This document shows, one piece after another, positions 17,525 through 31,880 of a DNA stretch of 64,000 nucleotides. A program made the position numbers and the translations under genes. Under the pieces are notes generated by a model that made no database searches, was not told the DNA's origin, and saw only the letters and a list, made by a program, of their open reading frames with translations. Source of the stretch: Candidatus Caldarchaeum sp. (GTDB lineage Archaea; Thermoproteota; Nitrososphaeria_A; Caldarchaeales; Caldarchaeaceae); the NCBI GenBank assembly GCA_038885755.1, contig JAVZZH010000001.1:288001-352000 (forward strand), given 5' to 3'. Within the stretch, counting starts at the first letter, position 1, and every line of letters starts with the position of its first letter.

Positions 17525-17528
17525 CGTG

Positions 17529-18347
17529 ATGGACTTCACGGCCTCTATTCTGGTTCAAAAACCGCGTACGCTCGAGGTGCCGGTGTATCAGGCGGACGGA
17601 GTGAAGAGCGGATCCGTAGCCCTGCCCAGAGCATTCACCGCACCCATGCGGGAGGACTTGGTCCGAAGGGCTTATCTGCACTTGGCGACACACCGGCTCC
17701 AGCCCAAAGGAGCTTCAAAGATATCGGGGCACAAGCATTCAGTCGAGTCTTGGGGGCCGGGGTTCGGCATGGCCCGCATCTCAAGGATACGCGGACGTGG
17801 AACACCCAAGTACGGGTCAGGGGGAATGGTTCCGTCAGCCGTTGGAGGTAGGCCTACTCATCCGCCCGTGCCTGAAAAAAGAATACACAAGGCCTTGAAC
17901 AAGAAGGAGCTACGGAACGCATTTCTCTCAGCCCTCGCATTCACCACGTCCAGCGAGAAGGTTAGAGAAAGGGGGCACCGAATACCAGCTGAAACACCAC
18001 TCCCCATAGTCGTCGACGATGCTGTAGAGGAAATCGCCAAGACTAGAGAGGTTAAAAACCTTCTGAACAGCTTGGGGCTGGCGGACGAGCTTCGGAGATG
18101 CGTGCGGGTCAAGATAAGGCCCGGCAGGGGCAAGATGAGGGGCAGGATTTACAAGCGGAGGCGCGGCCCTCTGCTGGTTGTTTCGAAGAAGTGCGTCCTC
18201 GCCAAAGCCGCTGAGAACATAGAGGGAGTTGACGTTGTTGAGGCTAGAAACCTCAGCGTCCTCGACCTCGCTCCGGGCGGTCATCCAGGCAGGCTGGCCA
18301 TCTTCACAAAATCGGCGCTCAACGTTCTGGGTGAGAGGCTGGAATGA
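17529..18347 (+). CDS. rpl4: 50S ribosomal protein uL4
   Basis: [38 protein letters not shown]. Confidence 0.97.
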
Positions 18348-18604
18348 ACCTTCAAGACGTGGTCAAGCGTGTTGTGATAACTCAGGACGCCGTCTCGCTC
18401 ATCGAGAAGGAGAACAAGCTCGTGTTCATAGTCGACTTGAAAGCCGACAAAAAGACCATCATGCGTGCAGTCGAGCATCTATACGAGGTTAAGGTCGAGA
18501 AGGTAAACACGCTGATAACGCCGAGGGGTGAGAAGAAAGCTTTCGTCAAGCTAAAGCCCGAGTACAAGGCGTCCGACCTAGCAGTAAAGCTTGGAATCTT
18601 CTGA
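18344..18604 (+). CDS. rpl23: 50S ribosomal protein uL23
   Basis: [14 protein letters not shown]...GEKKAFVKL. Confidence 0.97.
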
Positions 18605-18615
18605 GGTGGACAGGT

Positions 18616-19338
18616 ATGGGCAGGAACATAAGAGCTCAACGCATCGGCCGCGGCTCACCGCGCTTCATAGCCTCTAAACACCGCAAATACGAGGTGGGCT
18701 ATCCTACCAGCTTAATCAACTCGGGAGGGTTGACGACGGCGGTGGTCAGGGACATTCTCCACGACCCGGGCAGAGGAGCTCCTGTGGCTATCGTGGGCTA
18801 TGACGGCACGGAGTTCGCAGTTCCAGCTGTTGAGGGAATGTATGTTGGGCAGGTGATTGAGATGGGTGGTTCGGCGAAGCCTTCTGCGGGGAACATCGTC
18901 GTCCTAGGCAGCGTTCCAGAGGGAACCGTCGTGTCGATGGTTGAAAGGGTTCCCGGCGACGGTGGAAAGCTTGTGAGGACCTCGGGAGGCTACGCCGTTG
19001 TGATGGCTCAGGTCGGCGACAAGACGATCCTGCGAATGCCGTCCAAGAAAGACGTCGAAGTTTCGGCGAAGTCTCTGGCGGTGGTGGGCGTCGTAGCCGG
19101 CGGAGGCAGGAACGAGAAACCATTCCTCAAGGCCGGCGCGAAGCATCATTTGATGAGAGCCCGACACCGCTACTGGCCGAAGTCGAGGGGCGTGGCCATG
19201 GTTCCCGCCGTGCACCCGTTCGGCGGAGGAAGCCACAAGAGAATAGGAAGGCCCGAGACGGTGAAGCGCACAACTCCCCCTGGGAGGAAGGTGGGTTTGA
19301 TAGCCGCACGGAGGACTGGAAGGAAGAAGAAAGGCTGA
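18616..19338 (+). CDS. rpl2: 50S ribosomal protein uL2
   Basis: HDPGRGAP, GDGGKL.R.SG, RGVAM...HPFGGG, PPGRKVG. Confidence 0.98.
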   Translation: MGRNIRAQRIGRGSPRFIASKHRKYEVGYPTSLINSGGLTTAVVRDILHDPGRGAPVAIVGYDGTEFAVPAVEGMYVGQVIEMGGSAKPSAGNIVVLGSVPEGTVVSMVERVPGDGGKLVRTSGGYAVVMAQVGDKTILRMPSKKDVEVSAKSLAVVGVVAGGGRNEKPFLKAGAKHHLMRARHRYWPKSRGVAMVPAVHPFGGGSHKRIGRPETVKRTTPPGRKVGLIAARRTGRKKKG

Positions 19339-19409
19339 AACAAAGAACCGAAATACCTATGTTTGAAAGGATATTTCAGAGTTCTGGCAGATTAGGAAGG
19401 GGGAGGTAA

Positions 19410-19550
19410 GGAAGCCGGAGACCACCCACTTGGCGGTGTTCGCTCTGCTCATGGGCGTGGGTTTGGATGCGGGGGCTTTCGGCAGCTTGGCTGTTCCGCT
19501 GGGCTCCGGAGAAACGGGTTCCGGGCGGGCGTCGCATGATGCTCGGCTCC
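19410..19550. ncRNA. Candidate structured non-coding RNA (unassigned)
   Basis: GC-rich stretch in the 260-bp rpl2-rps19 gap; complementary ends (GGAAGCCGGAG / CTCGGCTCC) and internal stems CCCAC/GTGGG, GGCAGC/GCTGTT, CCGGA/TCCGG. Confidence 0.3.
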
Positions 19551-19566
19551 ATATGTTAGTTCATGT

Positions 19567-19574
19567 TTATATGC
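19567..19574 (+). promoter_or_regulatory. TATA box for leaderless rps19 (could also act on the minus strand)
   Basis: TTTATATG about 25-30 nt upstream of ATG 19600. Confidence 0.55.
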
Positions 19575-19599
19575 AGGCGGTCAGCCTTGACGGCCGGTA

Positions 19600-20013
19600 A
19601 TGGTTAGGGAGTTCACATACAAAGGCTACACAGTTGAACAGCTCATGTCCATGAGCATGGATGCTGTGATAAAGCTCCTGCCCAGCAGGGCTAGGAGAAG
19701 CCTCTACAAGAGAGGCCTCACTCCTGCGCAGTCCAAGCTGCTGGTCAAGGTGCGTAAGGCTAGGAAGCTTCTAGAGTCGGGGCAGAGGCTTGAGAAGCCG
19801 ATTAAGACACACTGCAGGGACATGATTATAATCCCCGAGATGATCGGGTTAACCATCCACGTTCACAACGGCAAGGAGTTTCAGCCCGTCGAGATCGTTC
19901 CCGAGATGCTTGGACACAGGCTCGGCGAATACGTAATCACTAACAAGAAGGTCGTCCACGGAAGAGCAGGAGTCGGCGCGACTAGGAGCAGCATGTACGT
20001 CCCGCTGAAATAG
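19600..20013 (+). CDS. rps19: 30S ribosomal protein uS19
   Basis: [44 protein letters not shown]. Confidence 0.98.
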
Positions 20014-20442
20014 CCTTACGCATCTACGTGTGTCAAGAGCTACGAGCTTCTGAAGCCAGCGACACTGTTCCTCCGTCAGAAGCTGTGAGTTTTGAGCGGA
20101 TAGACATCTAGCTTCTGCACGGCTAATAACAGCTGGGCTTGCAAAATACCGTCCCATGCCGTCGGCGGCGAAAGCATCCAATGAGATGGAACGAGTAATA
20201 AAAACCATCGACAGCGGTGCTCACAAAAGCTCTAAGAAGCTTGGCTCGGAGAAAGATAGGCTATCTCAACAAGGCTTCACACACCAAGTATAGCGCTCCT
20301 GCATGTGACCAGACATCAATTGAACGTTTTCAGAAATAAGCGGGCATACAAAACCAACAGGTTCAAGGCGTGTCGGGAAAGATGTATTTTAGAGAAAAAA
20401 GACTTAAATAAACTATGCACGTCGCGTCAGTTGATTTGATTC

Positions 20443-22758
20443 ATGAAAAGAGTTGAAGACATGCGGCTTCTCAAAGGCCTCGGTGTTTTTGTAGACGACC
20501 TAACGCTTCCTAAGATGCTTCACTGCGTATTTACCCGAAGCAGTTACGCTCACGCAAAGATTCTCAGAATAGATTATTCCGAAGCCCTCAAGACAGGGGG
20601 TGTAGTGGCGGTAATAGATGGAAGTTACGTAGCGTCGCGCTACAAACCGCTCAACACACTCATAAATGGAATTAATTACTATGGAATAGCCGTTGACAAA
20701 GTCCGCTACTTTGGAGAACCAGTGGCGATGGTGCTAGCCGATTCCGTCGAGACGGCATACGACGCCGCAGAAAAAATCTACGTAGATTATGACCCGCTTC
20801 CGGCGGTTGTTGAGCCTGAGAAGTCCGCGGCTTCGACGACCTTAGTCCATGAAAACGTTGGAACTAACCTTGTTCTTCACAGAAGCTTCAGATTCGGCGA
20901 TGTAGATAAAGCGTTTGAAGAAGCTCATACTGTTGTCTCGGAAAAATTCTATTTCGACCGGTACGCCGCCTCACCGGTAGAGACGTGCGGTGTTCTTGTC
21001 AACTATCTAAAGGATGGGTCTTTAACAGTTTACGACAACCAGCAGACACCGTATCTTTTTAGAAAAACCATAGCACGTTCCTTAGGCATCGACCCTGAGA
21101 AAGTTAGGTTTATCGAAAAAGACGCAGGCGGTGGTTTCGGCGTAAAGATCATGCTCTACCCATATGTTTTCTTACTCTGCCTCGCGTCCTTACACGTTCA
21201 AAGACCTGTAAAATGGTTCGAAACGAGGAGAGAGCATCTAACGTCTATGGCTCAAAACTCGAACAGAGTGACCTACGCCGAGATGGCCTTGGATAAAACC
21301 GGCCGAATCACCGGCTACAGGACGAAGTTTTACGAGGATTGTGGAGCGTTTGTCAGACTGCCCGACCCCGGAGGAGTCATAAGATCCTTGATGACCTATC
21401 AGGGATGTTATGATATCAGAAATATCGAGGTTGATTTGAATGTTGTAGTGACGAATAAATGTCCAACCGGGCCTGTCAGAGGCTATGGGTGCCCGCAGGC
21501 ATATTTTGTTCTGGAAAGGATGATGGATATCGCGGCGAAGCAGGTTGGGTTATCACCCTTTGAAATCCGTATCCGCAACATGGTGGATAAAAGCCAGCAA
21601 CCTTACCGAACGGTTTTCGGCAGCCTGTATGACGGCGGTGATTACAAAAACGTTCTGGAGAGAGCGTGGAAGCTTGCCGAGCCGGAGAAATTCGCTGGCG
21701 AACCTAACGTGGGTATCGGGATAGCGTGTGTTGTGGAGCCAGCTGTGACGAACCTGGCTCGAAATAAGCTTCTTTTCCCCGAGATTGAAGCATCGGGTTC
21801 AGGCGAGGGAGCGGTGGTCCGTCTCGAGGAATCGGGGAACATAACAGTCTACATAGCATCCATTCCCCAAGGTCAAGGGCACGAAACTGTCGCTACGCAG
21901 GTCGTCTGCGAAACTTTGAACGTTAAGCCCGAGCGGGTGAGAATTGTTTATGGTGATTCAGAAATGGTTTACCCCAGCCCGTATGGAGGGACATGGGCTA
22001 GCAGATTCAGCGTGATGACCACAGCTGCCGTGAAAAAAGCCTGTGAAACCCTGAAACGCAGCATACTCTCCGTCGCCTCCGAACTCCTCGAAGCATCTGA
22101 AAACGACCTGGAAATCCGCGACGGAGCAATCTACGTAAGAGGGTCTGAAGCCTCGATCTCGTTGGAACAGCTTGCCGCAAAAGCATACCGCGACAGTGTC
22201 AAAGCACGTAGCCGCGCCCCGCTGCAGGCTGAACATTTCTATGATTTCCCAACATTCAACACAGGCGTTGCAGGAGGTATCAACATGTCGGCCACCTACG
22301 GCAACTCAGCGCATGTTGCAATAGTAAGGGTAGACCCCGAAACCTTCAAACCAACAATACTACGGTATGTGGCGGTCCATGACTGCGGCAGGATCTTGAA
22401 CAAACAAATCGTCGACGGCCAGATATTCGGCGGAGTAGTGCAGGGGATTGGGGCAACGCTTTACGAAAGAATCGTTTACGATGAAAACGGACAGATTTTA
22501 ACATCGTCTTTCATCGACTACCTTTTGCCAACATCTGTTGAGACGCCGGAGGTCATAGTAGACCACTTAGAGACCCCGTCTTTGTTTTCTGAGCTTGGGT
22601 CGAAGGGTATGGGCGAGGGCCCCTTGATACCTGTATCTGCTTCGATAGCCAACGCAGTTGAAGATGCTTTGAAAACCCGAATAAACAACTCTCACATCTC
22701 GCCTCAACAGCTCTGGGAGACGATGAAAAATAATAAAAATAAGCTGCGAAAGAGTTGA
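20443..22758 (+). CDS. Xanthine dehydrogenase/CoxL-family molybdopterin hydroxylase, large subunit (not a true CODH)
   Basis: R.ED.RLL.G.G.FVDD, GGGFGVK, PVRGYG active-site loop, GQGHET, DCG.ILN..IVDGQI.GG..QG, KGMGE. Confidence 0.92.
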   Translation: MKRVEDMRLLKGLGVFVDDLTLPKMLHCVFTRSSYAHAKILRIDYSEALKTGGVVAVIDGSYVASRYKPLNTLINGINYYGIAVDKVRYFGEPVAMVLADSVETAYDAAEKIYVDYDPLPAVVEPEKSAASTTLVHENVGTNLVLHRSFRFGDVDKAFEEAHTVVSEKFYFDRYAASPVETCGVLVNYLKDGSLTVYDNQQTPYLFRKTIARSLGIDPEKVRFIEKDAGGGFGVKIMLYPYVFLLCLASLHVQRPVKWFETRREHLTSMAQNSNRVTYAEMALDKTGRITGYRTKFYEDCGAFVRLPDPGGVIRSLMTYQGCYDIRNIEVDLNVVVTNKCPTGPVRGYGCPQAYFVLERMMDIAAKQVGLSPFEIRIRNMVDKSQQPYRTVFGSLYDGGDYKNVLERAWKLAEPEKFAGEPNVGIGIACVVEPAVTNLARNKLLFPEIEASGSGEGAVVRLEESGNITVYIASIPQGQGHETVATQVVCETLNVKPERVRIVYGDSEMVYPSPYGGTWASRFSVMTTAAVKKACETLKRSILSVASELLEASENDLEIRDGAIYVRGSEASISLEQLAAKAYRDSVKARSRAPLQAEHFYDFPTFNTGVAGGINMSATYGNSAHVAIVRVDPETFKPTILRYVAVHDCGRILNKQIVDGQIFGGVVQGIGATLYERIVYDENGQILTSSFIDYLLPTSVETPEVIVDHLETPSLFSELGSKGMGEGPLIPVSASIANAVEDALKTRINNSHISPQQLWETMKNNKNKLRKS

Positions 22759-22764
22759 TGAGAA

Positions 22765-23949
22765 ATGAAAACCGTTCTGATCAAAAACATAGGTAAAATA
22801 GTTTCGGGAAAAATAGCTAAGCCAATAGTCGACGGCGACAGCATATACATCAGCAACGGCGTCGTAGAGGAAGTTGGATACAACATTTCACGCCAGGCTG
22901 ACGGGGTCTTCGACGTCAACGGCATGACAGTCATTCCAGGACTGTTTGATTCCCATGTTCACCCGGTTTTCGGAGATTTCACACCCAGGCAAAACACTCT
23001 CGGGTTCATAGAATCGTCTGTCAACGGAGGCGTGACAACATTCATCTCAGCCGGTGAAGTGCATTTGCCCGGCAGGCCTCGCGGCGATAAGGATGCGGCG
23101 AAGGCGTTGGCAATTTTAGCCCACAAAACATTCAAAAACCTTCGGCCTCTCGGCGCGAAGATTCACGCCGGAGCTTTGCTGCTTGAGAAAGGACTGGTTG
23201 AGGCTGATTTTGAAGAAGTGGTGAGGGCCGGTGTTTGGTTGGTTGGCGAGGTTGGTCTCGGAAGCGTCCAGGACCCAGATGAGGCGGCGGCTCTGGTGAG
23301 AATAGCCCAGAAACACGGCATGAAAGTGGTTATCCACACAGGAGGAGCATCGATTCCAGGCAGCACGATCATCAACGCGGAAGTAGTCCTGAAGGTAAAG
23401 CCGAACGTCGTGTCGCACATCAACGGAGGGCCCACATCACCATCGTTGACAGACATCCGAAGAATAATCGAGAACACAGAATCAGCCATCGAAGTCGTGC
23501 AGTGCGGCAACTTCAAATCCATGGTCGAAACAGTCAAGATACTCCATTCACGCAACGAGCTGAACAGGCTGATAATAGGAAACGACGCGCCATCGGGAAC
23601 CGGCGTAGTCCCGCTCGGAATAATCCGGACTGTATCTTTCATCGCATCCAACACGTCAGTTGAGGCGGAGAAAGTTGTCTGCGCAGCCACCGGCAACACT
23701 GCCAAAGTCTTCGGCTTAAAGGAAGGCGTTATCGAACCAGGAAAACCCGCAGACCTCATAGTCGTGGACACGCCCTACGGCTCGACCGGCAGAGACGCTC
23801 TCGAAGCATTTTCCGTCGGCGACATTCCCGGCATAGCTATGGTGATGGTCGACGGCGTTCCACGTGTAGGCCGCAGTAGGATGACTCCCCCTCCAACGAA
23901 ACATATAAAAACTGAAGGAGAAGCGAAACTCCCCGAAGGCGGTCATTAA
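22765..23949 (+). CDS. Enamidase-like amidohydrolase
   Basis: IKNIGKIVSG, DSHVH, PRQ.T..FI, H.PGRP, HTGG.SIPGS, SHINGGPT, GNDAPSGTG..PLG, GDIPGI, SR.TPP; closely follows my recollection of Eubacterium barkeri Ena over its full length. Confidence 0.88.
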   Translation: MKTVLIKNIGKIVSGKIAKPIVDGDSIYISNGVVEEVGYNISRQADGVFDVNGMTVIPGLFDSHVHPVFGDFTPRQNTLGFIESSVNGGVTTFISAGEVHLPGRPRGDKDAAKALAILAHKTFKNLRPLGAKIHAGALLLEKGLVEADFEEVVRAGVWLVGEVGLGSVQDPDEAAALVRIAQKHGMKVVIHTGGASIPGSTIINAEVVLKVKPNVVSHINGGPTSPSLTDIRRIIENTESAIEVVQCGNFKSMVETVKILHSRNELNRLIIGNDAPSGTGVVPLGIIRTVSFIASNTSVEAEKVVCAATGNTAKVFGLKEGVIEPGKPADLIVVDTPYGSTGRDALEAFSVGDIPGIAMVMVDGVPRVGRSRMTPPPTKHIKTEGEAKLPEGGH

Positions 23950-23950
23950 A

Positions 23951-24931
23951 ATGAAGCTAGGCCTCCGGTTGCCAACATTCACACGCACGGGTGATTTTTC
24001 ATCAGGCGAAGCCTTGAAAAACTATGTTGCTGAGGCTGAGCAACTCGGCGTCCAGGGATTCTTCGTCATCGACCATTTGCTTACATCGCGGCCGGCTTAT
24101 TCAACTAGCTGGCACGACCCGTTGATTGCCCTGTCCTTCGTCGCGGCGGCGACAAAGAACGCCGTTGTAGGTCCCATGGTGATGGTGCTGCCTCTCAGAA
24201 GTCCCTATCTTGTCGCAAAACAGACAGCTTCTTTGGATGTTTACTCTGGAGGAAGATTTGTGCTTGGAGCGGGCGTGGGATGGAACGTCGACGAATTCAA
24301 ACTGCTTAACGTTCCGCTGGAAAAAAGAGGAGTTATAATGGACGAATACCTTGCCCTTCTCAAAAAGCTCTGGACCGATGACAAAGTCACGTTCGAGGGA
24401 AAACATTTCAACGTGAAAGACCTAGTCCTCGAGCCCAAGCCTGTTCAGAAACCACATCCCCCTATATGGATAGGTGGCGGCAGCCAGCCGCATGAAATTC
24501 TCTACGGTGCTGCCGCGAAGGGAATCGATAAAGTTCTTCTACGCATAGCCAAGTTTGCGGATGGATGGATACCGCATTCAAGCTCAACGCCCGAGATGTC
24601 GGCTCAGGACTGGGAGAAAGTGAAGAAATATGCAGAGGAGCTCGGACGCGACCCCTACCGAATAACAAAAGTCTATTCAAACTTTGTCTACATCCGTAGC
24701 CCGGGAGAGGATGACAACGAAGCCGTGAAACGTTTTTCACTCTACTCAGGTATGAACCTCGAATACTGGAGAAACTACTACCTCTACGGCACTGCTGACG
24801 AGCTTGCGGTGAAGATCAAGAAACGCATCGAATCGCTTGAGGGCGTTGACTGGGTCGTGCTAAACCCCGTGACGTTTGAAAGAACGCAGCTTCTCAGAAT
24901 CACGCAAGACCTCTATCCTCGCGTCAGCTAA
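23951..24931 (+). CDS. LLM-class (luciferase-like) flavin/F420-dependent oxidoreductase
   Basis: DH motif, LD..SGGR..LG.G.GW...EF, PKPVQKPHPPIWIGG, ADGW. Confidence 0.92.
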   Translation: MKLGLRLPTFTRTGDFSSGEALKNYVAEAEQLGVQGFFVIDHLLTSRPAYSTSWHDPLIALSFVAAATKNAVVGPMVMVLPLRSPYLVAKQTASLDVYSGGRFVLGAGVGWNVDEFKLLNVPLEKRGVIMDEYLALLKKLWTDDKVTFEGKHFNVKDLVLEPKPVQKPHPPIWIGGGSQPHEILYGAAAKGIDKVLLRIAKFADGWIPHSSSTPEMSAQDWEKVKKYAEELGRDPYRITKVYSNFVYIRSPGEDDNEAVKRFSLYSGMNLEYWRNYYLYGTADELAVKIKKRIESLEGVDWVVLNPVTFERTQLLRITQDLYPRVS

Positions 24932-24969
24932 ACAAAACTATAAAAGCCTCTATATTTGCTGGAAAAACC

Positions 24970-26184
24970 ATGAAAAGGTCAGTCGTCATTGCTATCGTTG
25001 CCGTGGTCGTGGTCGTTGCAGCTTCGTCTGGTGTGTTCCTGTTTCTCTCACAGCAGAGCCTTGGAGTATCTGAGGTGAAGATCGGAGCTCTCGTTCCTTT
25101 GACAGGTCCTTTCGCCATCTACGGCGACTACACAATTTACGGGATGAGGTTTGCTGTCGATGAACTGAACGCCAAGGGAGGTGTTCTTGGGGCGAAGGTC
25201 GTTCTCATCGAGGCTGACGAAAAAAACGACGCGAAGGAAGCTGTTGCGATATTCAAAAGGATGGCGGAGATTGACCGCGTAACCGCCGTTGTGGGTACAA
25301 TTTCGAGCGGGATCGGCGCAGTCTTGACGGCTGAGGCGGAGCAGGCGAAGGTTCCGCTTTTCCTCATAGCAGCCGGATCACACACAATCCTGACCAAGGA
25401 TTCCCGCTACACGTTCAGAACCTGTCTACCGCCTGCTCCAACTAACGGCGAGCTCCTAGCCAACTTTGTCCGCGACAAAGGCTACAAGAGAGTCGGCGTA
25501 GTCATAGCTAGTTATGAATGGGGTTTTGCCATCAAGGAAGTTTTGGAGAAACGGCTGAAGGATATTCCGGGAGTACAGTTTCAGATTGAGGAAGCTCCTC
25601 TAGGTGAGACTGACTTTACAACCGTTCTTCGGAAGCTTCAGCCCCTCAATCCAGAGGTCATGATACTGACCGGGCATCCGCCGGGATTCCCCGTTATCAC
25701 CAAGCAAGCCATTGAACTTGGTTTCCAATCAGAGTACTACATTGCTTCAGTTCAGCCGCCTGAACTCATGCTCAGAGGTGTTGGAGAAATAGGCCTCAAC
25801 AAGCTTGTCACAACCACGTGCGTGAACTTAGAAGCACCCCAGTACCGTGAGCTGGCGGAGAAATTCTACCAGAAATACGGCAAATACTTTGACCATAACG
25901 CGGTATCCGGATACGTCACCGTGTTGTTGATCGCCGACGCTGTGGAGAAGACAAGGTCAACAGACCCCGCAGTTGTTGCCAACTACATCCGTACACACGA
26001 GTTCAACCATCCCGTATTCGCATGGCCGTTGTCCTACACCGAGTGGGGCGAGATAAAGAAGCCGTCGATGCGTCTCGCTGTGATTAAGAGCGGAAACCCA
26101 GGCCCGGTCAACCCGGGAGCGAACTGGCTGGTTGAAAACCTGTATACATCGCCGCCGGTCGAGCCTTACGTTCCAGCCAAATAA
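24970..26184 (+). CDS. ABC transporter substrate-binding protein (LivK/HAAT type)
   Basis: N-terminal TM anchor, KIGALVPLTGP, NAKGGVLG. Confidence 0.92.
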   Translation: MKRSVVIAIVAVVVVVAASSGVFLFLSQQSLGVSEVKIGALVPLTGPFAIYGDYTIYGMRFAVDELNAKGGVLGAKVVLIEADEKNDAKEAVAIFKRMAEIDRVTAVVGTISSGIGAVLTAEAEQAKVPLFLIAAGSHTILTKDSRYTFRTCLPPAPTNGELLANFVRDKGYKRVGVVIASYEWGFAIKEVLEKRLKDIPGVQFQIEEAPLGETDFTTVLRKLQPLNPEVMILTGHPPGFPVITKQAIELGFQSEYYIASVQPPELMLRGVGEIGLNKLVTTTCVNLEAPQYRELAEKFYQKYGKYFDHNAVSGYVTVLLIADAVEKTRSTDPAVVANYIRTHEFNHPVFAWPLSYTEWGEIKKPSMRLAVIKSGNPGPVNPGANWLVENLYTSPPVEPYVPAK

Positions 26185-26243
26185 CATATTTTTATATTTC
26201 TTTTCCTGACGAGAAGACGGTTGATAACGGTTTGGGATCTATA

Positions 26244-26981
26244 ATGCTAAACTGTATTGACGTGACTATGTTTTTCGGCGGTCTACCGGCCCTGAGGAAC
26301 GTCAACCTCCAAGTTGAGGAGGGTGAGATCAGGGCTGTCATCGGCCCTAACGGAGCTGGTAAAACAACGCTGTTTAACGTGATAAACGGAGTCTACAAGC
26401 CTTCTTCAGGCAAGATTCTGCTCGATGGTGTTGACATAACTAGAAAACCTCCATACGTGGTTTTTAAGCTCGGTGTTGGAAGAACTCTCCAGATTCCAAG
26501 GCCTTTCAAGGATTTGACGGTTTGGGAGAACGTTCTGGCAGGCGGGCTGTTCAGCGGCCGTATGTCGATGGATGAGCTGGAAAACCATGTTTCAACGCTC
26601 TTAGACAGACTCGGTTTATCCAGTAAAGCAAACCTCAAAGCAGCTGTTCTGAACCTTCAGGAAAGGAAGAAAGTAGAGCTGGCGAGAGCCTTGGCGTCGA
26701 AGCCAAAGGTTTTGATGGTGGATGAATACATGAGCGGCCTCAACACCGCCGAAATAGAGGATGCCGTAGAGCTCTTCAGAGAACTGAGGAAAACCTACAA
26801 CCTTACGATCATCTGGGTCGAACACGTGATCAGCGCGGTGTCATCCCTCGCCGACAAGGTTTCAGTCCTAAACCAAGGGGTAAAGATAGCTGAGGGAAAG
26901 CCTGAAGAAATAGTCGCCGACGAAGAGGTAATTGAAGCTTACTTGGGTGAGAGAATTGTCCAGCCTTCTAAAAGTGGATAA
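26244..26981 (+). CDS. ABC ATPase (LivG-like)
   Basis: FGGL.AL, GPNGAGKTT, ELARALA, EH, EAYLG. Confidence 0.93.
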   Translation: MLNCIDVTMFFGGLPALRNVNLQVEEGEIRAVIGPNGAGKTTLFNVINGVYKPSSGKILLDGVDITRKPPYVVFKLGVGRTLQIPRPFKDLTVWENVLAGGLFSGRMSMDELENHVSTLLDRLGLSSKANLKAAVLNLQERKKVELARALASKPKVLMVDEYMSGLNTAEIEDAVELFRELRKTYNLTIIWVEHVISAVSSLADKVSVLNQGVKIAEGKPEEIVADEEVIEAYLGERIVQPSKSG

Positions 26982-27675
26982 CCTCGCAGCAGCATACGGC
27001 GACATTCAAATTCTCTGGGATGTTTCGATAAACGTAAACAAGGGAGAAGTGGTCGTCGTTTTGGGCCCCAACGGTGCCGGCAAAACAACCCTTCTCAAAA
27101 CTATTGCAGGCTTGTTGAAACCCAAAAAAGGTTCAGTGACCCTTGATGGTAAACGAATAGACGGCCTGCCGCCTGAAAAGGTTGTCGGAGAAGGCGTGGC
27201 ATTGGCACTCGCTGAGAAAGAACTCTTTCCCCAGATGACTGTAAAGGAAAACCTGCTTCTCGGAGCCTTCCACGCTAGGGCGAGGAAAAAAGTTCATGAA
27301 AACCTCGAGCTTGTCTACAGCATCTTTCCAAAACTCAAAGAAAGAGAGTTTCAAAAAGCGGGGACCATGAGCGGTGGCGAACAGCAGATGCTGGCCATCG
27401 GCAGAGCTTTGATGACGGATGCTAAGCTTTTGCTTCTGGACGAGCCTTCCACAGGACTTGCTCCACTACTCGTCAAAAACATTTTCACAGGACTGAGGAG
27501 AATAATGGAGAACAAGAAAGAGCTGTCGATACTTCTAGTCGAACAACGAACGGTGCAGGCGGCGGAGCTGTGCGACAGGGGATACATACTCACGAACGGC
27601 CGCATAGTGTTCGACGGCGACATACGAGAAGGGCTGTCGAAACAGGCTTTCGTCAGAAAGTATCTGGGGATGTAG
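26956..27675 (+). CDS. ABC ATPase (LivF-like)
   Basis: GPNGAGKTT, MSGGEQQMLAIGRALM, DEPSTGLAP. Confidence 0.94.
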   Translation: MSSLLKVDNLAAAYGDIQILWDVSINVNKGEVVVVLGPNGAGKTTLLKTIAGLLKPKKGSVTLDGKRIDGLPPEKVVGEGVALALAEKELFPQMTVKENLLLGAFHARARKKVHENLELVYSIFPKLKEREFQKAGTMSGGEQQMLAIGRALMTDAKLLLLDEPSTGLAPLLVKNIFTGLRRIMENKKELSILLVEQRTVQAAELCDRGYILTNGRIVFDGDIREGLSKQAFVRKYLGM

Positions 27676-27677
27676 AT

Positions 27678-28550
27678 ATGGACTCTAGTTTCCTTTTATT
27701 CGTTATAGATGGAGTGGTTTTTGGCTTGATTCTTTCGCTGATAGCCGCAGGCTTGACTTTGATATACGGCCTAGCCGGCGTGCTTAACCTTGCACACGGC
27801 GAGCTGCTGGTTGTATGCACAGTAACCTCGGCTGTCTTGATGCAGACATTTGGTTTTCCGCTATCGCTGGCTTTAGTAGCTGGCCTAGCCGTCACAGCAG
27901 GTGCAGCCGCCTTCCTCGACAAGATCGTTCTACAGCCCGTTTACAGGCTTGAAGGTGAGGAAAGAGTTCTTCTAGGCCTCTACTTGACGCTCGCTTTCTC
28001 AATCTTCCTCCACAGCTCTATCATAACAACTTTCCCCCTCGCGTTCCTCACGATCAACCTGCCGATAGCAACAATCAACTTCATGGAGTTGAAGCTTCGG
28101 CTGGCTCAGTTGGTGACCGGCGTGTCTTCAGCGGCCATCCTAGTGGGAGTTTACTTTTTCCTCAGGAGAACTTGGAGCGGTATGGCGATACGTTCCCTCA
28201 CTCAAAATGAAACAGGTGCGTTGATGGTCGGAGTAAGCGTCAAGAAATATCGTTTGCTGGTTTTCATGCTGGGAGCTTTTCTCGTCGGCCTTGCTGGGAT
28301 AATACGTAGCATCATAGCAACGGTTGCGCCGGAAAGCGGAATAGAGTTCACAATCCTAGGACTGCTTGTCTGCGTGGTGGGCGGGATTCGCAGCGTCTAC
28401 GGAGTGATTATCGCCGGCCTAGTCATAGGAATAGCCTATACTTTCCTCGTCTTCTTCATAGGTACTTACCTTGCCTACGTAGCTCTTTTGATCCTCATCA
28501 TAGCCATCATAATTGTTCGTCCCTACGGTATCGTGGGTGAGAAATGGTGA
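27678..28550 (+). CDS. ABC permease (LivH-like)
   Basis: GLTLIYG...VLNLAHGE, VVGG, RPYG. Confidence 0.92.
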   Translation: MDSSFLLFVIDGVVFGLILSLIAAGLTLIYGLAGVLNLAHGELLVVCTVTSAVLMQTFGFPLSLALVAGLAVTAGAAAFLDKIVLQPVYRLEGEERVLLGLYLTLAFSIFLHSSIITTFPLAFLTINLPIATINFMELKLRLAQLVTGVSSAAILVGVYFFLRRTWSGMAIRSLTQNETGALMVGVSVKKYRLLVFMLGAFLVGLAGIIRSIIATVAPESGIEFTILGLLVCVVGGIRSVYGVIIAGLVIGIAYTFLVFFIGTYLAYVALLILIIAIIIVRPYGIVGEKW

Positions 28551-29503
28551 GAGAGAGGGTAAAACTTAACGCTGTCATAGCACTGATACTTATTTACACA
28601 GCGTTGCCGCTACTGTTCATCAACACGCCCTACATCGTCTTCATATTAGTTCAGATGGTTTTCTTCACGGTTTTCGCCTACGGGTTTAACTTTCTGTTCG
28701 GGTTTACACGGCAGCTCTTCCTATGTATAGGGGCCTTCATCGGGGTTGGTGCATACATTACGGGGATATCTCTCCGAGACGGTTTGATGGGGCCTGTTGA
28801 GGCCATTCTAGTTTCCACACTGGTGGTCGCCTTCGTCGGATGGGCTGTCAGCATAATATCTATCCGTCGCAGGCTTGTCGTTATCTTCACAGGAATCTTC
28901 ACCCTAGCTATCACGCTTGTCTTCAACAACCTTGTAATAGGCCTCGCTAGCCTAACAGGCGGCGAGACGGGTTTCAGAATACGTGGAATAAGCCTAGGGC
29001 CTCTTGACTTGCTACCATACAACCTACGTTTCTACTATCTTGCCGCGGCCACGCTGCTGGCGGTGACTGTAGCATCCTACTACCTGCTTTTCCACACAAA
29101 AACAGGATACGCGTACCGCTGTATCATAGATGATGAAAACAGCGCCGAACTTGTCGGAATAAACGTCTCGAGGGTTAAAAGTCTAACAGCCCTGTTTTCA
29201 TCAGCGCTTCTGGGGCTGGCGGGAGCTCTTTACGGGCTGTTCTCGCAGCTCATCGCGCCCTCGTATTTCGCTTTTTCATCGGTCGACATTCCTGTCCAGC
29301 TTATCGTCATCCTAGGCGGAAGAACCACCCTGCTAGGTCCGTACATAGGCTCGGCCATCATCTCTATCGTAAACGAGGCCTTGAAATTTCTCGGGCCTTT
29401 GACGCAGGTCCTCTACGGTTTGACGCTGATGTTCCTTCTCGCGTTCTTCCGGAACGGGATAGTCGACTTCGTAAAGAGAAGATGGGTTAAATGGTTCTTT
29501 TAA
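28544..29503 (+). CDS. ABC permease (LivM-like)
   Basis: Multi-TM; LTGGETG, DENSAE.VGIN, ILGG..T..GP..G. Confidence 0.9.
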   Translation: MVRERVKLNAVIALILIYTALPLLFINTPYIVFILVQMVFFTVFAYGFNFLFGFTRQLFLCIGAFIGVGAYITGISLRDGLMGPVEAILVSTLVVAFVGWAVSIISIRRRLVVIFTGIFTLAITLVFNNLVIGLASLTGGETGFRIRGISLGPLDLLPYNLRFYYLAAATLLAVTVASYYLLFHTKTGYAYRCIIDDENSAELVGINVSRVKSLTALFSSALLGLAGALYGLFSQLIAPSYFAFSSVDIPVQLIVILGGRTTLLGPYIGSAIISIVNEALKFLGPLTQVLYGLTLMFLLAFFRNGIVDFVKRRWVKWFF

Positions 29504-30105
29504 CGCAGCCCGTCCTCTCCCCGGACCTCCTCTTTCCTCAAGCCGCCGATTCTAGGCAACGGTCTTCCAGAGTCCGACAACGCGGCTATGACCACTATCT
29601 CATCAGGTAGCGGGGCGTCCGGAACTCTTACCTCCATGCTGTCGTAATGTGAGCGGACAAAGGCGGCTCTTTTGTAGTGTAGCGGTACGTCGATAGCCGT
29701 CCCGGGATAGCCTATTTTAACCGATGAGGGGATTATTGCCTTGCACACGTCCGCACCGCCGCATTCCTCTCGGAAACCCTTTCCAAACTTGGGATGGAGA
29801 ATCGCGTGTCCGTGCTCAAGCTCGCCCATCATGCCGATGATCGCTGCCTTGCCATAGTTCTCGGTCGAGTCAGGAGTTATGGCTAACGCTTCACGGGCTT
29901 TCTTCGCAAGGTAGCCTCCCAGAAATTCTCCAGCCTCAATTAACATAGATAGATCTTCGACATATCTGCCGGCAAAAGGGTTCTTTATGACGGCTGCCGC
30001 GGCACTTCTTCTGACTGGTTTGCCTAGCTCGTTTCCCATCTCCACAAATGTTTCGTCGGTCGCTACGACAACTTTCCGTAGAATAACTCCGCCAGCTATT
30101 TTCAT
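29500..30105 (-). CDS. AA_synth (DUF1185) family protein
   Basis: AAVIKNPFAGR, YGKAAI.G..GELEH, VPL.YK.....RSHYD, DAPLPDEIV, GRP.PR. Confidence 0.88.
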   Translation of the reverse strand: MKIAGGVILRKVVVATDETFVEMGNELGKPVRRSAAAAVIKNPFAGRYVEDLSMLIEAGEFLGGYLAKKAREALAITPDSTENYGKAAIIGMMGELEHGHAILHPKFGKGFREECGGADVCKAIIPSSVKIGYPGTAIDVPLHYKRAAFVRSHYDSMEVRVPDAPLPDEIVVIAALSDSGRPLPRIGGLRKEEVRGEDGLR

Positions 30106-30106
30106 T

Positions 30107-31549
30107 TCACCACCACCTCGTAGTTATTATCTTATGATCTGTGAAAAACCTTATCGTGTCGACCCTGCTGTGAGCGTTTCCAAAGAAAGACTGCTTCCTC
30201 CCGCCCAGCGGGAAGTATGCCATTGGTTGGGGAACACCTATGTTCACGCCTACATTGCCGACGTTGACGTTTAAACAGAATTCTCTTGCAGCCCGCGGGT
30301 CTGATGTGAAGATTGAGGCAGCGTTGCCGAAAGGCGTGTTGTTGTTTATGAGGTCGATGGCTTCGCCGAGGCTGTCTACTCTGAGAATGGTCGCAACGGG
30401 GCCAAAGATTTCTTCTTTCGCTAGGGGCGAGTCGGGTGGAAGGTCTTTGAAGATTGTTGGGCCGACGAAGTATCCTTGAAGACCTTTGAGCTGGCTATGG
30501 AGCCGGCCGTCCAGCATAGGTTTCGCATACTGTTCACCTATTTCTATGTATCTCCTGACCCTCTCCACTCCCTGGCGTGAAGCCATCGGACCCATCTCCG
30601 TCTCCTTGTCCATGCCGTATCCCAGCCTCAGGTTTGACTTGGATAAAACCATGTCCACAACCCTCTCAGCTCCTTTCAAAACAACTAGGTTGGAACCGGC
30701 TAGACATCTCTGGCCCGTCATTCCAAAGAACGAGGAAACAGCCGCATCAGCGGTTTTAGACAATTCGGCGTCAGGCGCCACCACAATATGGTTTTTCGCT
30801 CCGGCGTTAATTGATGCTCTCTTACCCTCCTTAGCCACCATCTCGTAGAGCAGTTTACCAGTCTTGGTCGAGCCTATGAAGCCCACCCCCTGGATTCCGT
30901 TATGCTTGACCAGTTTCTCGGCCACGCGTCCGTCTCCATGGACTATGGACATGACTCCAGGCGGAACGCCTGCTTCTCTGACTATGCGGGCAACCTCGTC
31001 ATAAACAAGGGGTGTGACCTCGCTTGGCTTAAGAACGACAGTGCATCCAAGAGCGATAGCGTAGGGAACGTAAGAGGACCATGCGTGGAGCGGGATGTTG
31101 AAGGGAGTTATTACAGCAAAACATCCCAACGGCTCCCGGATCAGTTCCTGGTCTATGTCTGGTGAGATGTTGACCATTTTCTCGCCTTTTGCAAGCGTAT
31201 AAGCAAGCGCGGCAGCCGATTCTACGTTTTCAATGCTTCTCTTAACCTCTCCCACTCCCTCGGCGTAGGTCCTTCCATGGTTCTCGACCAAAACGCGTGC
31301 AAGCAGGTCTGTGTCGCGTTCCAGCAGGCTTCTCAATCGCATGAGATAACCTACCCTTTCCGACGGAGTCGTCTTCCTGTATTTTTCAAATGCTCTGAGA
31401 CCAGACTCGACAGCTCTGTCAACGTCTTCTGAAGTACTCGCCGGCACGTATGCGATTACTGAGTCGAAGGCAGGATTATACACTGGAATCGTCTCGACAG
31501 ACTTTGATGGGACGAATTCGTTGTCGACGAAGTTCTGCAGAATCTTCAT
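30107..31549 (-). CDS. CoA-acylating (methyl)malonate-semialdehyde dehydrogenase family aldehyde dehydrogenase
   Basis: TPFN, KPSE, FIGST, GAKNH, GQRCLA, EEIFGPV, VGVNIGVP.P.AYFP.GG. Confidence 0.88.
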   Translation of the reverse strand: MKILQNFVDNEFVPSKSVETIPVYNPAFDSVIAYVPASTSEDVDRAVESGLRAFEKYRKTTPSERVGYLMRLRSLLERDTDLLARVLVENHGRTYAEGVGEVKRSIENVESAAALAYTLAKGEKMVNISPDIDQELIREPLGCFAVITPFNIPLHAWSSYVPYAIALGCTVVLKPSEVTPLVYDEVARIVREAGVPPGVMSIVHGDGRVAEKLVKHNGIQGVGFIGSTKTGKLLYEMVAKEGKRASINAGAKNHIVVAPDAELSKTADAAVSSFFGMTGQRCLAGSNLVVLKGAERVVDMVLSKSNLRLGYGMDKETEMGPMASRQGVERVRRYIEIGEQYAKPMLDGRLHSQLKGLQGYFVGPTIFKDLPPDSPLAKEEIFGPVATILRVDSLGEAIDLINNNTPFGNAASIFTSDPRAAREFCLNVNVGNVGVNIGVPQPMAYFPLGGRKQSFFGNAHSRVDTIRFFTDHKIITTRWW

Positions 31550-31722
31550 GCCTTTATGCTCAGATGGGAGTTTTTAAATCTGATGCTTCTAGGACGTCTT
31601 TGCAATGAAAGGGGCCTTAGCCGTTGAAAGAAGCACTAGCCTAGTGTAGCCATTAATTTGTGGGATGAGTTTCAAGGGAATCCATCTCTTAAATCAGCGG
31701 AGACACACGCTAGAGTAAAATG

Positions 31723-31807
31723 TGCGGGGGGTGGGATTTGAACCCACGAACCCCTTCGGGACAGGGTCCTAAGCCCTGCGCCGTTGACCAGGCTTGGCAA
31801 CCCCCGC
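31723..31807 (-). tRNA. tRNA-Leu(TAG)
   Basis: Minus strand: acceptor GCGGGGG/CCCCCGC, anticodon arm CAGGG-CT-TAG-GA-CCCTG, long variable arm, T-loop TTCAAAT. Confidence 0.96.
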
Positions 31808-31880
31808 TCAGACGCATCTTCGTCTTCGCGCTATTTTGGGTTTTTTACTCATTTTTTTATTGAAGGCTGGTTGTGATGGG

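What the first reader, a model, noticed from the sequence alone, without database searches (positions are those of the whole stretch)
23951..24931. LLM (possibly F420-dependent) enzyme as non-orthologous replacement of 6-hydroxynicotinate reductase
Seen: the island has no Hnr-like Fe-S flavoprotein (no Cys-rich ferredoxin-type ORF), and an LLM gene starts 1 bp after the enamidase stop. Established: some LLM-family enzymes are F420H2-dependent reductases, including hydride transfer to electron-poor aromatic rings. Inference: this enzyme performs the dearomatising reduction of the pyridone ring, which would be a new activity suited to an aerobic thermophile lacking low-potential ferredoxin. Alternatively it is an FMNH2-dependent monooxygenase.
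Basis: inference. Interest (0 to 1): 0.7.

Follow-up and report, generated by a model that had tools for sequence, protein, structure and literature searches.

The report
F420-type reductase in archaeal nicotinate cluster
A hot-spring archaeon carries the known gene set for breaking open vitamin B3 (nicotinate), but a luciferase-like enzyme of the coenzyme F420 class sits where the usual iron-sulfur ring reductase would be, which points to a new, untested enzyme for that step.

Summary
The ORF at 23951-24931 is a 326-aa luciferase-like (LLM) protein. It starts one base after the stop of a true enamidase (58% identical to PDB 2VUN). It scores above NCBI's cut-off for the F420-dependent LLM family TIGR03619.

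No 6-hydroxynicotinate reductase (Hnr) was found in the genome or in 30 relatives.

Among 80 enamidase loci from other genomes:
- 44 carry an Hnr-like gene, 16 carry an LLM, none carries both, and 20 carry neither.
- This also holds genome-wide: Hnr in 0 of 16 LLM-type genomes, and the LLM in 0 of 22 Hnr-type genomes.
- 15 of the 16 LLM-type genomes hold CofE or CofH; none of the 22 Hnr-type genomes does.

Searching from the LLM side, only its close clade (at least 45% identity) lies beside enamidase.

I read the LLM as an F420H2-dependent reductase that turns 6-hydroxynicotinate into the enamidase substrate (confidence about 0.6).

Caveats:
- There is no biochemistry.
- The enamidase tree needs only two Hnr/LLM switches, so the counts are not independent events.
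- The fold does not settle the cofactor.
- This genus has CofC, CofD, CofE and Fno but no Fo synthase (CofG/CofH).

I found no paper describing this. Earlier notes of this scan reached the same reading on other DNA, including another Caldarchaeum genome.

The parts
20443..22758 (+). Molybdenum hydroxylase large subunit (CoxL/XdhA-like), the presumed nicotinate (or related pyridine) hydroxylase. No FAD or 2Fe-2S subunit gene lies beside it.
   Evidence: Pfam Ald_Xan_dh_C, MoCoBD_1 and MoCoBD_2. No NCBIfam equivalog reaches its cut-off. Elsewhere in the genome there are 3 FAD-subunit and 4 2Fe-2S-subunit matches and 10 other long large-subunit matches. Its stop at 22756-22758 is 6 bases before the enamidase ATG.
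22765..23949 (+). Enamidase (hydrolyses 1,4,5,6-tetrahydro-6-oxonicotinate to 2-formylglutarate and ammonia)
   Evidence: phmmer E 5.1e-124 to PDB 2VUN enamidase, residues 3-379 aligned. Homologues named enamidase by their sources.
23951..24931 (+). The finding: a luciferase-like oxidoreductase of the F420 class (TIGR03619), proposed F420H2-dependent 6-hydroxynicotinate reductase.
   Evidence: TIGR03619 203.9 bits, cut-off 166.9. AF2 model pLDDT 89.2, LLM TIM barrel. Orthologues lie directly beside enamidase in 15 of 31 related genomes. The clade is linked to enamidase in bacteria of three phyla.
24970..26184 (+). Liv-type periplasmic substrate-binding protein of an ABC importer (presumed uptake of the pyridine substrate)
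   Evidence: Peripla_BP_6, E 6.3e-51. The same protein type occurs in 9 of 16 LLM-type and 7 of 44 Hnr-type loci. PMC3511419 mentions a putative nicotinate ABC transporter in the proteobacterial cluster.
26232..26981 (+). ABC transporter ATPase, LivG-like
   Evidence: ABC_tran and BCA_ABC_TP_C.
26932..27675 (+). ABC transporter ATPase, LivF-like. The listed start overlaps the previous gene by 50 bases, so the true start may be later.
   Evidence: ABC_tran. LivF model 236.7 bits, below its cut-off.
27570..28550 (+). ABC permease. The listed start overlaps the ATPase, so the true start may be later.
   Evidence: BPD_transp_2.
28544..29503 (+). ABC permease
   Evidence: BPD_transp_2.
29500..30105 (-). 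PF06684 (AA_synth / DUF1185) protein of unknown function, the constant companion of enamidase
   Evidence: PF06684, E 1e-67. A homologue is present in 63 of 80 enamidase loci: 39 of 44 Hnr-type and 15 of 16 LLM-type.
30107..31549 (-). Aldehyde dehydrogenase close to CoA-acylating methylmalonate-semialdehyde dehydrogenase. Inferred to convert 2-formylglutarate, possibly to glutaryl-CoA plus CO2.
   Evidence: Aldedh, E 9.4e-126. TIGR01722 MMSDH 414.9 bits, just under its cut-off of 448.5. Homologues occur in 26 of 80 enamidase loci, 6 of them LLM-type. The substrate assignment is inference.

Best explanation
The LLM at 23951-24931 is the ring reductase of a nicotinate (vitamin B3) breakdown operon. 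The proposed sequence is as follows. The substrate is imported by the Liv-type ABC system. The molybdenum enzyme hydroxylates it to 6-hydroxynicotinate (a 2-pyridone). The LLM transfers a hydride from F420H2 to C4 of the pyridone, with protonation at C5, giving 1,4,5,6-tetrahydro-6-oxonicotinate. Enamidase opens this ring to 2-formylglutarate and ammonia, and the MMSDH-like aldehyde dehydrogenase takes the product onward. F420H2 would be regenerated by the genome's Fno from NADPH. The LLM thus replaces, without homology, the iron-sulfur flavoprotein Hnr and its ApbE-like helper.

Shown here: gene identities, operon packing, family membership, phyletic patterns.
Inferred: substrate, cofactor use and the chemistry.
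For: Context: MoL, enamidase, LLM and the binding protein are packed with gaps of 6, 1 and 38 bases. The enamidase is 58% identical to the solved E. barkeri enzyme.

Family: TIGR03619 F420-dependent LLM, 203.9 bits against a cut-off of 166.9. Four of the five best models are F420 families.

No other redox candidate: the island holds only MoL, enamidase, LLM, transporter genes, PF06684 and ALDH.

Hnr not found: none in this genome. In 31 related genomes only ferredoxin-domain matches appeared.

Exclusion across 80 enamidase loci: 44 Hnr-like, 16 LLM, 0 both, 20 neither. The ApbE-like helper is in 40 of 44 Hnr loci and 0 of 16 LLM loci, whereas PF06684 is in both types.

Exclusion at genome level: Hnr in 0 of 16 LLM-type genomes, with 3 of 3 controls hit. 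An LLM relative in 0 of 22 Hnr-type genomes, with 2 of 2 controls hit.

F420 capacity: CofE above cut-off in 13 of 16 LLM-type genomes against 0 of 22 Hnr-type; CofH in 11 of 16 against 0 of 22; at least one of the two in 15 of 16.

Reciprocal test: of 22 metagenome loci whose LLM is at least 45% identical, 13 hold enamidase. In 8 of the other 9 the LLM lies within 600 bases of, or is cut by, the upstream contig end. Of 58 loci at 39% identity or less, none holds enamidase, PF06684 or MoL.

Within the lineage: enamidase in 16 of 31 genomes and the LLM orthologue in 15, always adjacent. In the 16th the enamidase is cut by a contig end.

Chloroflexota loci (L076, L082, L095) have enamidase-LLM followed by a complete three-subunit Ndh-like hydroxylase, that is, the canonical layout with only the reductase exchanged.

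Nicotinamidase-like isochorismatase genes occur in both cluster types.

Own genome: CofC, CofD, CofE and Fno above cut-off.

Precedent: an LLM-family F420H2 enzyme transfers hydride to the picrate ring (PMC8498797, passages read).
Against: No activity, cofactor binding or expression was measured.

CofG and CofH (Fo synthase) were not found in this genome. They were also not found in any of the 13 genomes of the genus, including two that are 99% complete. F420 could therefore be made only from imported Fo, or by an unknown route.

The fold does not decide the cofactor: FMN-type and F420-type LLM structures match the model about equally, TM 0.74-0.83.

TIGR03619 is a family defined by computation, and I know of no characterised member (recalled).

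The exclusion counts are phylogenetically structured. The enamidase tree needs only 2 Hnr/LLM changes, and the LLM-type loci come from four phyla, so independent events are few.

The Actinomycetota LLMs are only 33-36% identical to this one and group with two unlinked paralogues of this genome.

One close LLM (L088) has 2.8 kb of upstream sequence without enamidase. One counted LLM (L062) is 5.2 kb away on the other strand and is doubtful.

The MoL subfamily differs from the Ndh type and mostly lacks adjacent FAD and FeS subunits, so the substrate may not be nicotinate.

The identity of the 'Hnr-like' gene rests on names given by sources, gene order and a paper's statement. I could not fetch the E. 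barkeri sequence.
Confidence: 0.6

Rival explanations
1. Same job, different substrate. The operon degrades another N-heteroaromatic acid or pyridone (not nicotinate). The LLM reduces that hydroxylated ring before an enamidase-like hydrolase opens it.
For: The large Mo subunit is only 26-31% identical to those of Hnr-type clusters and 33-37% to those of other LLM-type clusters. It reaches no NCBIfam equivalog cut-off. Only 3 of 16 LLM-type loci have FAD and FeS subunits nearby. The genome has 11 long large-subunit genes of unknown specificity.
Against: The enamidase is as close to the E. barkeri enzyme (58%) as to the enamidases of canonical Hnr-type clusters (50-57%). Chloroflexota LLM-type loci carry the canonical three-subunit hydroxylase. 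Nicotinamidase-like genes sit inside LLM-type loci L064, L072 and L090.
Confidence: 0.13
2. The LLM works at another step and an unidentified enzyme reduces the ring. For example, it could be an F420-dependent reductase of 2-formylglutarate (standing in for the Hgd dehydrogenase), or a dehydrogenase that makes F420H2.
For: Known F420-dependent LLMs include alcohol and sugar-phosphate dehydrogenases (PMC8498797). No LLM-type locus has an Hgd gene, 0 of 16.
Against: Hgd is present in only 11 of 44 Hnr-type loci, so it is not the gene that alternates with the LLM; Hnr and its ApbE-like helper are. Six LLM-type loci, and this island, already carry an aldehyde dehydrogenase for the aldehyde product. 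The ring reduction would be left without any candidate in the island or the genome.
Confidence: 0.12
3. The LLM is an FMNH2- and O2-dependent monooxygenase that hydroxylates or cleaves the pyridone, as RutA does with uracil.
For: FMN-dependent LLM structures match the model as well as F420-dependent ones. The genome has two Flavin_Reduct (PF01613) genes. The organism is aerobic, with superoxide dismutase, peroxiredoxin and complex I genes in the window.
Against: All FMN-type models score far below their cut-offs: SfnG 70.5 of 383, SsuD 60.2 of 518, RutA 35.9 of 498. No flavin reductase gene lies in the island; the two in the genome are more than 200 kb away. LLM-type clusters track F420 genes, 15 of 16 against 0 of 22. 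A ring-cleaving oxygenase would make the conserved enamidase redundant (inference).
Confidence: 0.08
4. The adjacency has no functional meaning: the LLM is one of many paralogues that happens to lie in the operon.
For: The genome has 12 LLM-family genes.
Against: The adjacency is kept in 15 of 15 related genomes that have the gene and in bacteria of three phyla. More distant relatives are never linked, 0 of 58.
Confidence: 0.03

Closest known systems
Nicotinate fermentation cluster of Eubacterium barkeri (Ndh, Hnr, Ena, Hgd ...; Alhapel et al. 2006, recalled, paper not held) and its proteobacterial version (PMC3511419, passages read)
   Same: The logic is the same: hydroxylate, reduce, hydrolyse. 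It has a Mo hydroxylase large subunit, a true enamidase (58% to 2VUN), the PF06684 companion and a Liv-type ABC importer. A canonical copy was seen here in Neomoorella: ndhF-ndhS-ndhL-ndhM-ena-hnr-apbE-like-PF06684-hgd-hmd (L011).
   Different: There is no Hnr and no ApbE-like gene; an LLM stands directly after enamidase. No FAD or 2Fe-2S hydroxylase subunits lie in the island. An MMSDH-like aldehyde dehydrogenase takes the place of Hgd and Hmd. The host is an archaeon.
6-hydroxynicotinate reductase Hnr (EC 1.3.7.1; ferredoxin-dependent iron-sulfur flavoprotein; properties recalled)
   Same: Proposed to catalyse the same reaction, and occupies the same slot in the cluster.
   Different: Unrelated protein. 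Hnr-like proteins are about 500 aa with an N-terminal 2x[4Fe-4S] ferredoxin domain. The LLM is a 326-aa TIM barrel without such a domain. The donor would be a hydride carrier (F420H2) rather than a one-electron ferredoxin.
F420H2-dependent picrate reductase / hydride transferase (Fht/Npd) and other F420-dependent LLM enzymes (Mer, Adf, Fgd; PMC8498797)
   Same: Same superfamily and fold. It offers a precedent for hydride transfer from F420H2 to an electron-poor ring.
   Different: Only distant sequence relatives (E 1e-13 or weaker to solved F420 LLMs). The substrate would be a pyridone carboxylate in a vitamin catabolic pathway. The 2021 F420 review contains no occurrence of nicotinate, nicotinic or pyridone.
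TIGR03619 (Rv2161c-type) F420-dependent LLM class oxidoreductases
   Same: Scores above the curated cut-off. Homologues carry this name in NCBI records.
   Different: The family has no assigned reaction as far as I know (recalled). Only the subclade at about 45% identity or more to this protein, plus an actinobacterial group, is linked to enamidase.

Membership tests
TIGR03619 family F420-dependent LLM class oxidoreductase | Whole-protein score above NCBI's curated cut-off | tested here: met
   203.9 bits against a cut-off of 166.9, residues 25-248.
TIGR03619 family F420-dependent LLM class oxidoreductase | Luciferase-like TIM-barrel fold | tested here: met
   AF2 model pLDDT 89.2, pTM 0.89. 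Foldseek matches LLM structures at TM 0.74-0.83.
TIGR03619 family F420-dependent LLM class oxidoreductase | Host able to make F420 | tested here: inconclusive
   CofC, CofD, CofE and Fno are above cut-off. CofG and CofH were not found here or in the genus, including two 99% complete genomes.
TIGR03619 family F420-dependent LLM class oxidoreductase | Binds and uses F420 rather than FMN | not testable with these tools
   The fold search mixes FMN and F420 enzymes. No F420 ligand is offered for co-folding.
6-hydroxynicotinate reductase (Hnr) family | About 500-aa protein with an N-terminal 2x[4Fe-4S] ferredoxin domain, homologous to the Hnr-like cluster gene | tested here: not met
   The LLM has only PF00296. 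Hnr-like proteins have Fer4 domains. There is no Hnr match in the genome. It may work like Hnr but is not a member.
FMN-dependent LLM monooxygenases (SsuD, SfnG, LuxA, RutA types) | Score above a family cut-off | tested here: not met
   SfnG 70.5 of 383, SsuD 60.2 of 518, luciferase alpha 46.6 of 600, RutA 35.9 of 498.
FMN-dependent LLM monooxygenases (SsuD, SfnG, LuxA, RutA types) | Partner NAD(P)H:flavin reductase encoded with it | tested here: not met
   None in the island. Two PF01613 genes lie elsewhere on contig C1, at 100.6 and 584.8 kb.
Tetrahydro-6-oxonicotinate (E. barkeri type) nicotinate pathway cluster | Enamidase | tested here: met
   E 5.1e-124, full length, to 2VUN.
Tetrahydro-6-oxonicotinate (E. 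barkeri type) nicotinate pathway cluster | Multi-subunit Mo nicotinate dehydrogenase (FAD, 2Fe-2S, Mo subunits) in the cluster | tested here: inconclusive
   Only the Mo large subunit is in the island. FAD and FeS subunit genes exist elsewhere in the genome. Substrate not testable.
Tetrahydro-6-oxonicotinate (E. barkeri type) nicotinate pathway cluster | Hnr ring reductase | tested here: not met
   This is the point of the finding.

The most novel reading that the evidence does not exclude
The LLM is the first F420H2-dependent reductase of an N-heteroaromatic (pyridone) ring in a catabolic pathway. It works together with the lone molybdenum subunit, so that the two electrons taken from nicotinate at C6 return through F420 to C4/C5. 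This would be a redox-neutral hydroxylate-and-reduce module needing no ferredoxin and no FAD or FeS subunits. It would run in an archaeal genus that depends on Fo made by its neighbours.
Probability: 0.07. Interest if true: 0.85.

Novelty: new variant of a known kind. Interest (0 to 1): 0.62.

Why it matters
If confirmed, it adds a new reaction to the short list of F420-dependent enzymes: reduction of a pyridone ring in vitamin B3 breakdown. It would also give a concrete physiological role for F420 in Caldarchaeales, Methylomirabilota (Rokubacteria), Chloroflexota and Acidimicrobiia. The 2021 F420 review notes that no experimental studies of F420's role exist for bacteria outside Actinobacteria (passage read).

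It would explain how F420-bearing microbes run the enamidase route without the iron-sulfur Hnr, and it would offer a simple, soluble, single-subunit hydride-transfer catalyst for pyridone reduction. The case is directly testable with one recombinant protein, F420 and a commercial substrate.

The missing Fo synthase in the genus also raises the question of cofactor-precursor sharing in hot-spring communities.

Tried and rejected
1. Deciding the cofactor from structure. The AF2 model searched against PDB and the sequence search of PDB return FMN and F420 LLMs interleaved. Inconclusive.

2. Reading Alhapel et al. 2006. Not held by DOI or by PMC id, so what I say of that paper is recalled or taken from PMC3511419.

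3. Naming the Hnr-like gene through the listing of cluster members. Names came instead: one '6-hydroxynicotinate reductase' and two 'hnr' among 120 listed; most are named only '4Fe-4S binding protein'. NCBIfam and Pfam have no Hnr model.

4. My first greedy ORF calling missed genes in high-GC loci. I replaced it with tblastn on the DNA.

5. Treating PF06684 as the replacement reductase. Rejected: it accompanies both Hnr-type and LLM-type clusters, and its solved fold is chorismate-mutase-like with no cofactor reported (PMC2954203, abstract and passages).

6. Looking for other redox genes in LLM-type bacterial loci. DUF1015 appears in L068 and L072, and RidA plus a weak nitroreductase-family match in L068 only. 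None is in this island.

7. Searching the F420 reviews for sequence motifs that separate F420 from FMN LLMs. None found in the passages searched.

8. Checking whether the island sits at the same place in a same-genus genome. No flank gene is shared with L005.
Full report
WHAT IS THERE

The window comes from an archaeon: it carries archaeal-type ribosomal proteins L3, L4, L2 and S19. The closest homologues of its proteins are named Candidatus Caldarchaeum by their sources. The assembly is 1.33 Mb in 10 contigs and 86.5% complete.

Between rps19 (19600-20013) and a PUA-domain gene (31794-32366) lies an 11-kb stretch of lower G+C, 0.49-0.52 against 0.56-0.58. Its genes are:
- a molybdenum hydroxylase large subunit (20443-22758);
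- an amidohydrolase (22765-23949);
- the LLM of the finding (23951-24931);
- a Liv-type binding protein with two ATPases and two permeases (24970-29503);
- on the other strand, a PF06684 protein (29500-30105) and an aldehyde dehydrogenase close to methylmalonate-semialdehyde dehydrogenase (30107-31549).

The first four genes are separated by 6, 1 and 38 bases.

The amidohydrolase matches the solved enamidase of Eubacterium barkeri (2VUN) over its whole length at E 5.1e-124; the next PDB hit is at 9e-09. The LLM has the Pfam luciferase-like domain. In NCBIfam it exceeds the curated cut-off of TIGR03619, an F420-dependent LLM family (203.9 against 166.9 bits). Models for FMN-dependent LLM monooxygenases stay far below theirs.

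IS Hnr REALLY MISSING?

I needed a reference Hnr and could not fetch the E. barkeri protein, so I took it from context. A scan of one genome per species for enamidase relatives gave 80 loci. I clustered their ORFs and scanned representatives with Pfam. This showed a roughly 500-aa protein with an N-terminal 2x[4Fe-4S] domain in 43 loci by ORF clustering, and in 44 by tblastn.

In Neomoorella (L011) this protein sits in the order ndhF-ndhS-ndhL-ndhM-ena-X-apbE-like-PF06684-hgd-hmd. That is the published E. barkeri layout as I recall it. Among the 120 nearest homologues of the Sedimentibacter copy, sources name one '6-hydroxynicotinate reductase' and two 'hnr'. PMC3511419 reports a 42%-identical homologue of E. 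barkeri Hnr inside the conserved Bradyrhizobiaceae cluster (passages). My Afipia and Bradyrhizobium loci carry this gene.

With this protein as query, nothing is found in the window's genome. In 31 related genomes only the short ferredoxin domain matches.

MUTUAL EXCLUSION

- By locus: of the 80 enamidase loci, 44 have the Hnr-like gene, 16 have an LLM, none has both and 20 have neither.
- Among the 20 with neither, most are cut close to the enamidase, seven have 10 kb on both sides, and one of those seven ends at an ApbE-like gene.
- Companion genes: the ApbE-like gene goes with Hnr (40 of 44 loci; 0 of 16 LLM loci). PF06684 goes with both types (39 of 44; 15 of 16).
- Linkage: fifteen of the 16 LLMs are on the enamidase strand within 3.7 kb. 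The sixteenth (L062) is 5.2 kb away on the other strand and should be discounted.
- By genome: the Hnr query finds nothing in the 16 LLM-type genomes but hits all three Hnr-type controls. The LLM finds no relative at E <= 1e-30 in 22 Hnr-type genomes but hits both controls.

F420 CAPACITY FOLLOWS THE LLM

CofE is above its cut-off in 13 of 16 LLM-type genomes and in 0 of 22 Hnr-type genomes. CofH is above cut-off in 11 of 16 and 0 of 22; six Hnr-type genomes have sub-cut-off radical-SAM relatives. Fifteen of the 16 have at least one of the two. These genomes are mostly MAGs, so a missing gene is weak evidence.

THE RECIPROCAL TEST

A metagenome scan anchored on the LLM gave 80 loci, scored.
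- Of the 22 whose LLM is at least 45% identical to this one, 13 contain enamidase and 14 have a Mo large subunit directly downstream.
- In eight of the nine without enamidase, the LLM lies within 600 bases of, or is cut by, the upstream contig end. One (L088) has 2.8 kb of upstream sequence without enamidase.
- None of the 58 loci with an LLM at 39% identity or less has enamidase, PF06684 or the Mo subunit.

In a tree of 64 LLMs, all 28 enamidase-linked ones and the window's fall in one well-supported group of 36 (SH-aLRT 99). That group also holds five short-contig rows and two unlinked paralogues of this genome. The actinobacterial linked LLMs form their own branch next to those paralogues.

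Within the archaeal lineage, enamidase orthologues occur in 16 of 31 genomes and LLM orthologues in 15. They are always adjacent on the same contig. In the sixteenth genome the enamidase is cut by a contig end.

HOW IT MOST LIKELY WORKS

The chemistry needed between a Mo hydroxylase and enamidase is a two-electron reduction of the C4=C5 bond of the 2-pyridone ring. In the island the LLM is the only candidate. Its family is predicted to use F420H2, an obligate hydride donor. LLM-family F420H2 enzymes are known to add hydride to the picrate ring (PMC8498797).

I therefore propose hydride transfer to C4 and protonation at C5, giving the enamidase substrate. Fno, present at 182 bits, would recharge F420 from NADPH. 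The aldehyde dehydrogenase resembles the CoA-acylating, decarboxylating MMSDH. Its substrate analogue here would be 2-formylglutarate, a 2-substituted malonate semialdehyde, so glutaryl-CoA is a plausible product. That step is inference only.

WHAT WEAKENS THE CASE

(1) Nothing is measured.

(2) CofG and CofH are not found in this genome, nor in 12 other genomes of the genus, two of them 99% complete in 1 and 4 contigs. One genome of another genus in the family has both. CofE and Fno are present in all five genus or order members tested. The genus either imports Fo or makes it in an unknown way. With 12 LLM genes in 1.33 Mb, it clearly invests in this enzyme class.

(3) Structure does not settle the cofactor.

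(4) The counts are not independent events. The enamidase tree needs only two Hnr/LLM changes, and the LLM-type enamidases form three neighbouring groups. The pattern is clean but rests on few switches, in four phyla.

(5) The Mo subunit is of a different subfamily from canonical Ndh and usually stands alone, so the substrate could be a nicotinate relative. Against that, Chloroflexota loci pair enamidase-LLM with a complete Ndh-type enzyme, and nicotinamidase-like genes lie inside some LLM-type loci.

Hnr-type clusters are common in aerobic Alphaproteobacteria, and the pathway is documented in aerobic Azorhizobium (PMC3511419).

COMPARISON AND NOVELTY

This is the E. barkeri-type upper nicotinate pathway with one step served by an unrelated enzyme, so it is a new variant of a known kind. 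Four full-text searches combining F420, enamidase, 6-hydroxynicotinate, nicotinate catabolism and Caldarchaeum found no paper that links F420 or an LLM to this pathway. The 2021 F420 review has no occurrence of nicotinate, nicotinic or pyridone. The library lacks most subscription journals, so absence from print is not proven.

Earlier AI notes of this scan reached the same reading on other DNA: Rokubacteria, Chloroflexota, and another Caldarchaeum genome that shares 37 of 86 sequence words with this LLM. I read them after my own tests. They are not independent evidence.

VERDICT

Confidence that the LLM is the F420H2-dependent ring reductase of this operon is about 0.6. Interest is 0.62.

Noticed in passing
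window 16559-20013 and 20014-31793: The ribosomal protein operon L3-L4-L23-L2-S19 stops after S19 and is followed by the 11-kb lower-GC catabolic island. In a same-genus genome the orthologous island (L005) shares none of the 11 flank genes tested. The island has therefore moved, or the region was rearranged.
   Followed up: partly
window 29500-30105 (-); loci L005-L084: The PF06684 (DUF1185 / 'AA_synth') protein accompanies enamidase in 63 of 80 loci, whichever ring reductase is present. Its name and the 2010 structure paper link it to amino-acid metabolism, and a term search of that paper found no mention of nicotin- (PMC2954203). It looks like an unassigned component of the enamidase pathway.
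   Followed up: partly
whole genome G000 and genus (G039-G050): CofC, CofD, CofE and Fno are present, but the Fo synthase genes CofG and CofH were not found in any of 13 genomes of the genus, two of them 99% complete. A sister genus (G053) has both. This suggests dependence on imported Fo.
   Followed up: partly
window 30107-31549 (-); loci: Enamidase clusters end in one of two ways. An HIBADH-like Hgd is mostly in Bacillota (12 loci). An MMSDH-like aldehyde dehydrogenase is in Desulfobacterota, Actinomycetota and this archaeon (26 loci). The second suggests a route from 2-formylglutarate to glutaryl-CoA. I recall no description of it and did not search for one.
   Followed up: no
G000 contigs C1, C3, C4, C10: There are eleven long Mo-hydroxylase large-subunit genes but only 3 FAD and 4 2Fe-2S subunit genes in a 1.33-Mb genome. 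Most large subunits, like the one in the island, are encoded alone.
   Followed up: no
G000:C3:94000-125000: A second region gathers two LLM paralogues (the nearest to the actinobacterial enamidase-linked LLMs), an aldehyde dehydrogenase, three HIBADH-like genes and a Mo large subunit. It may be another F420-linked catabolic locus.
   Followed up: no
relatives G040, G042, G044, G046, G047, G050: A second enamidase paralogue (39-41% identical) exists in six genomes of the genus but was not found in this assembly.
   Followed up: no
L068:10729-14185, L072:2094-3338: Rokubacteria/Methylomirabilota LLM-type loci insert a DUF1015 gene between enamidase and PF06684. L068 adds RidA and a weak nitroreductase-family match. 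None of these is in the archaeal island.
   Followed up: partly
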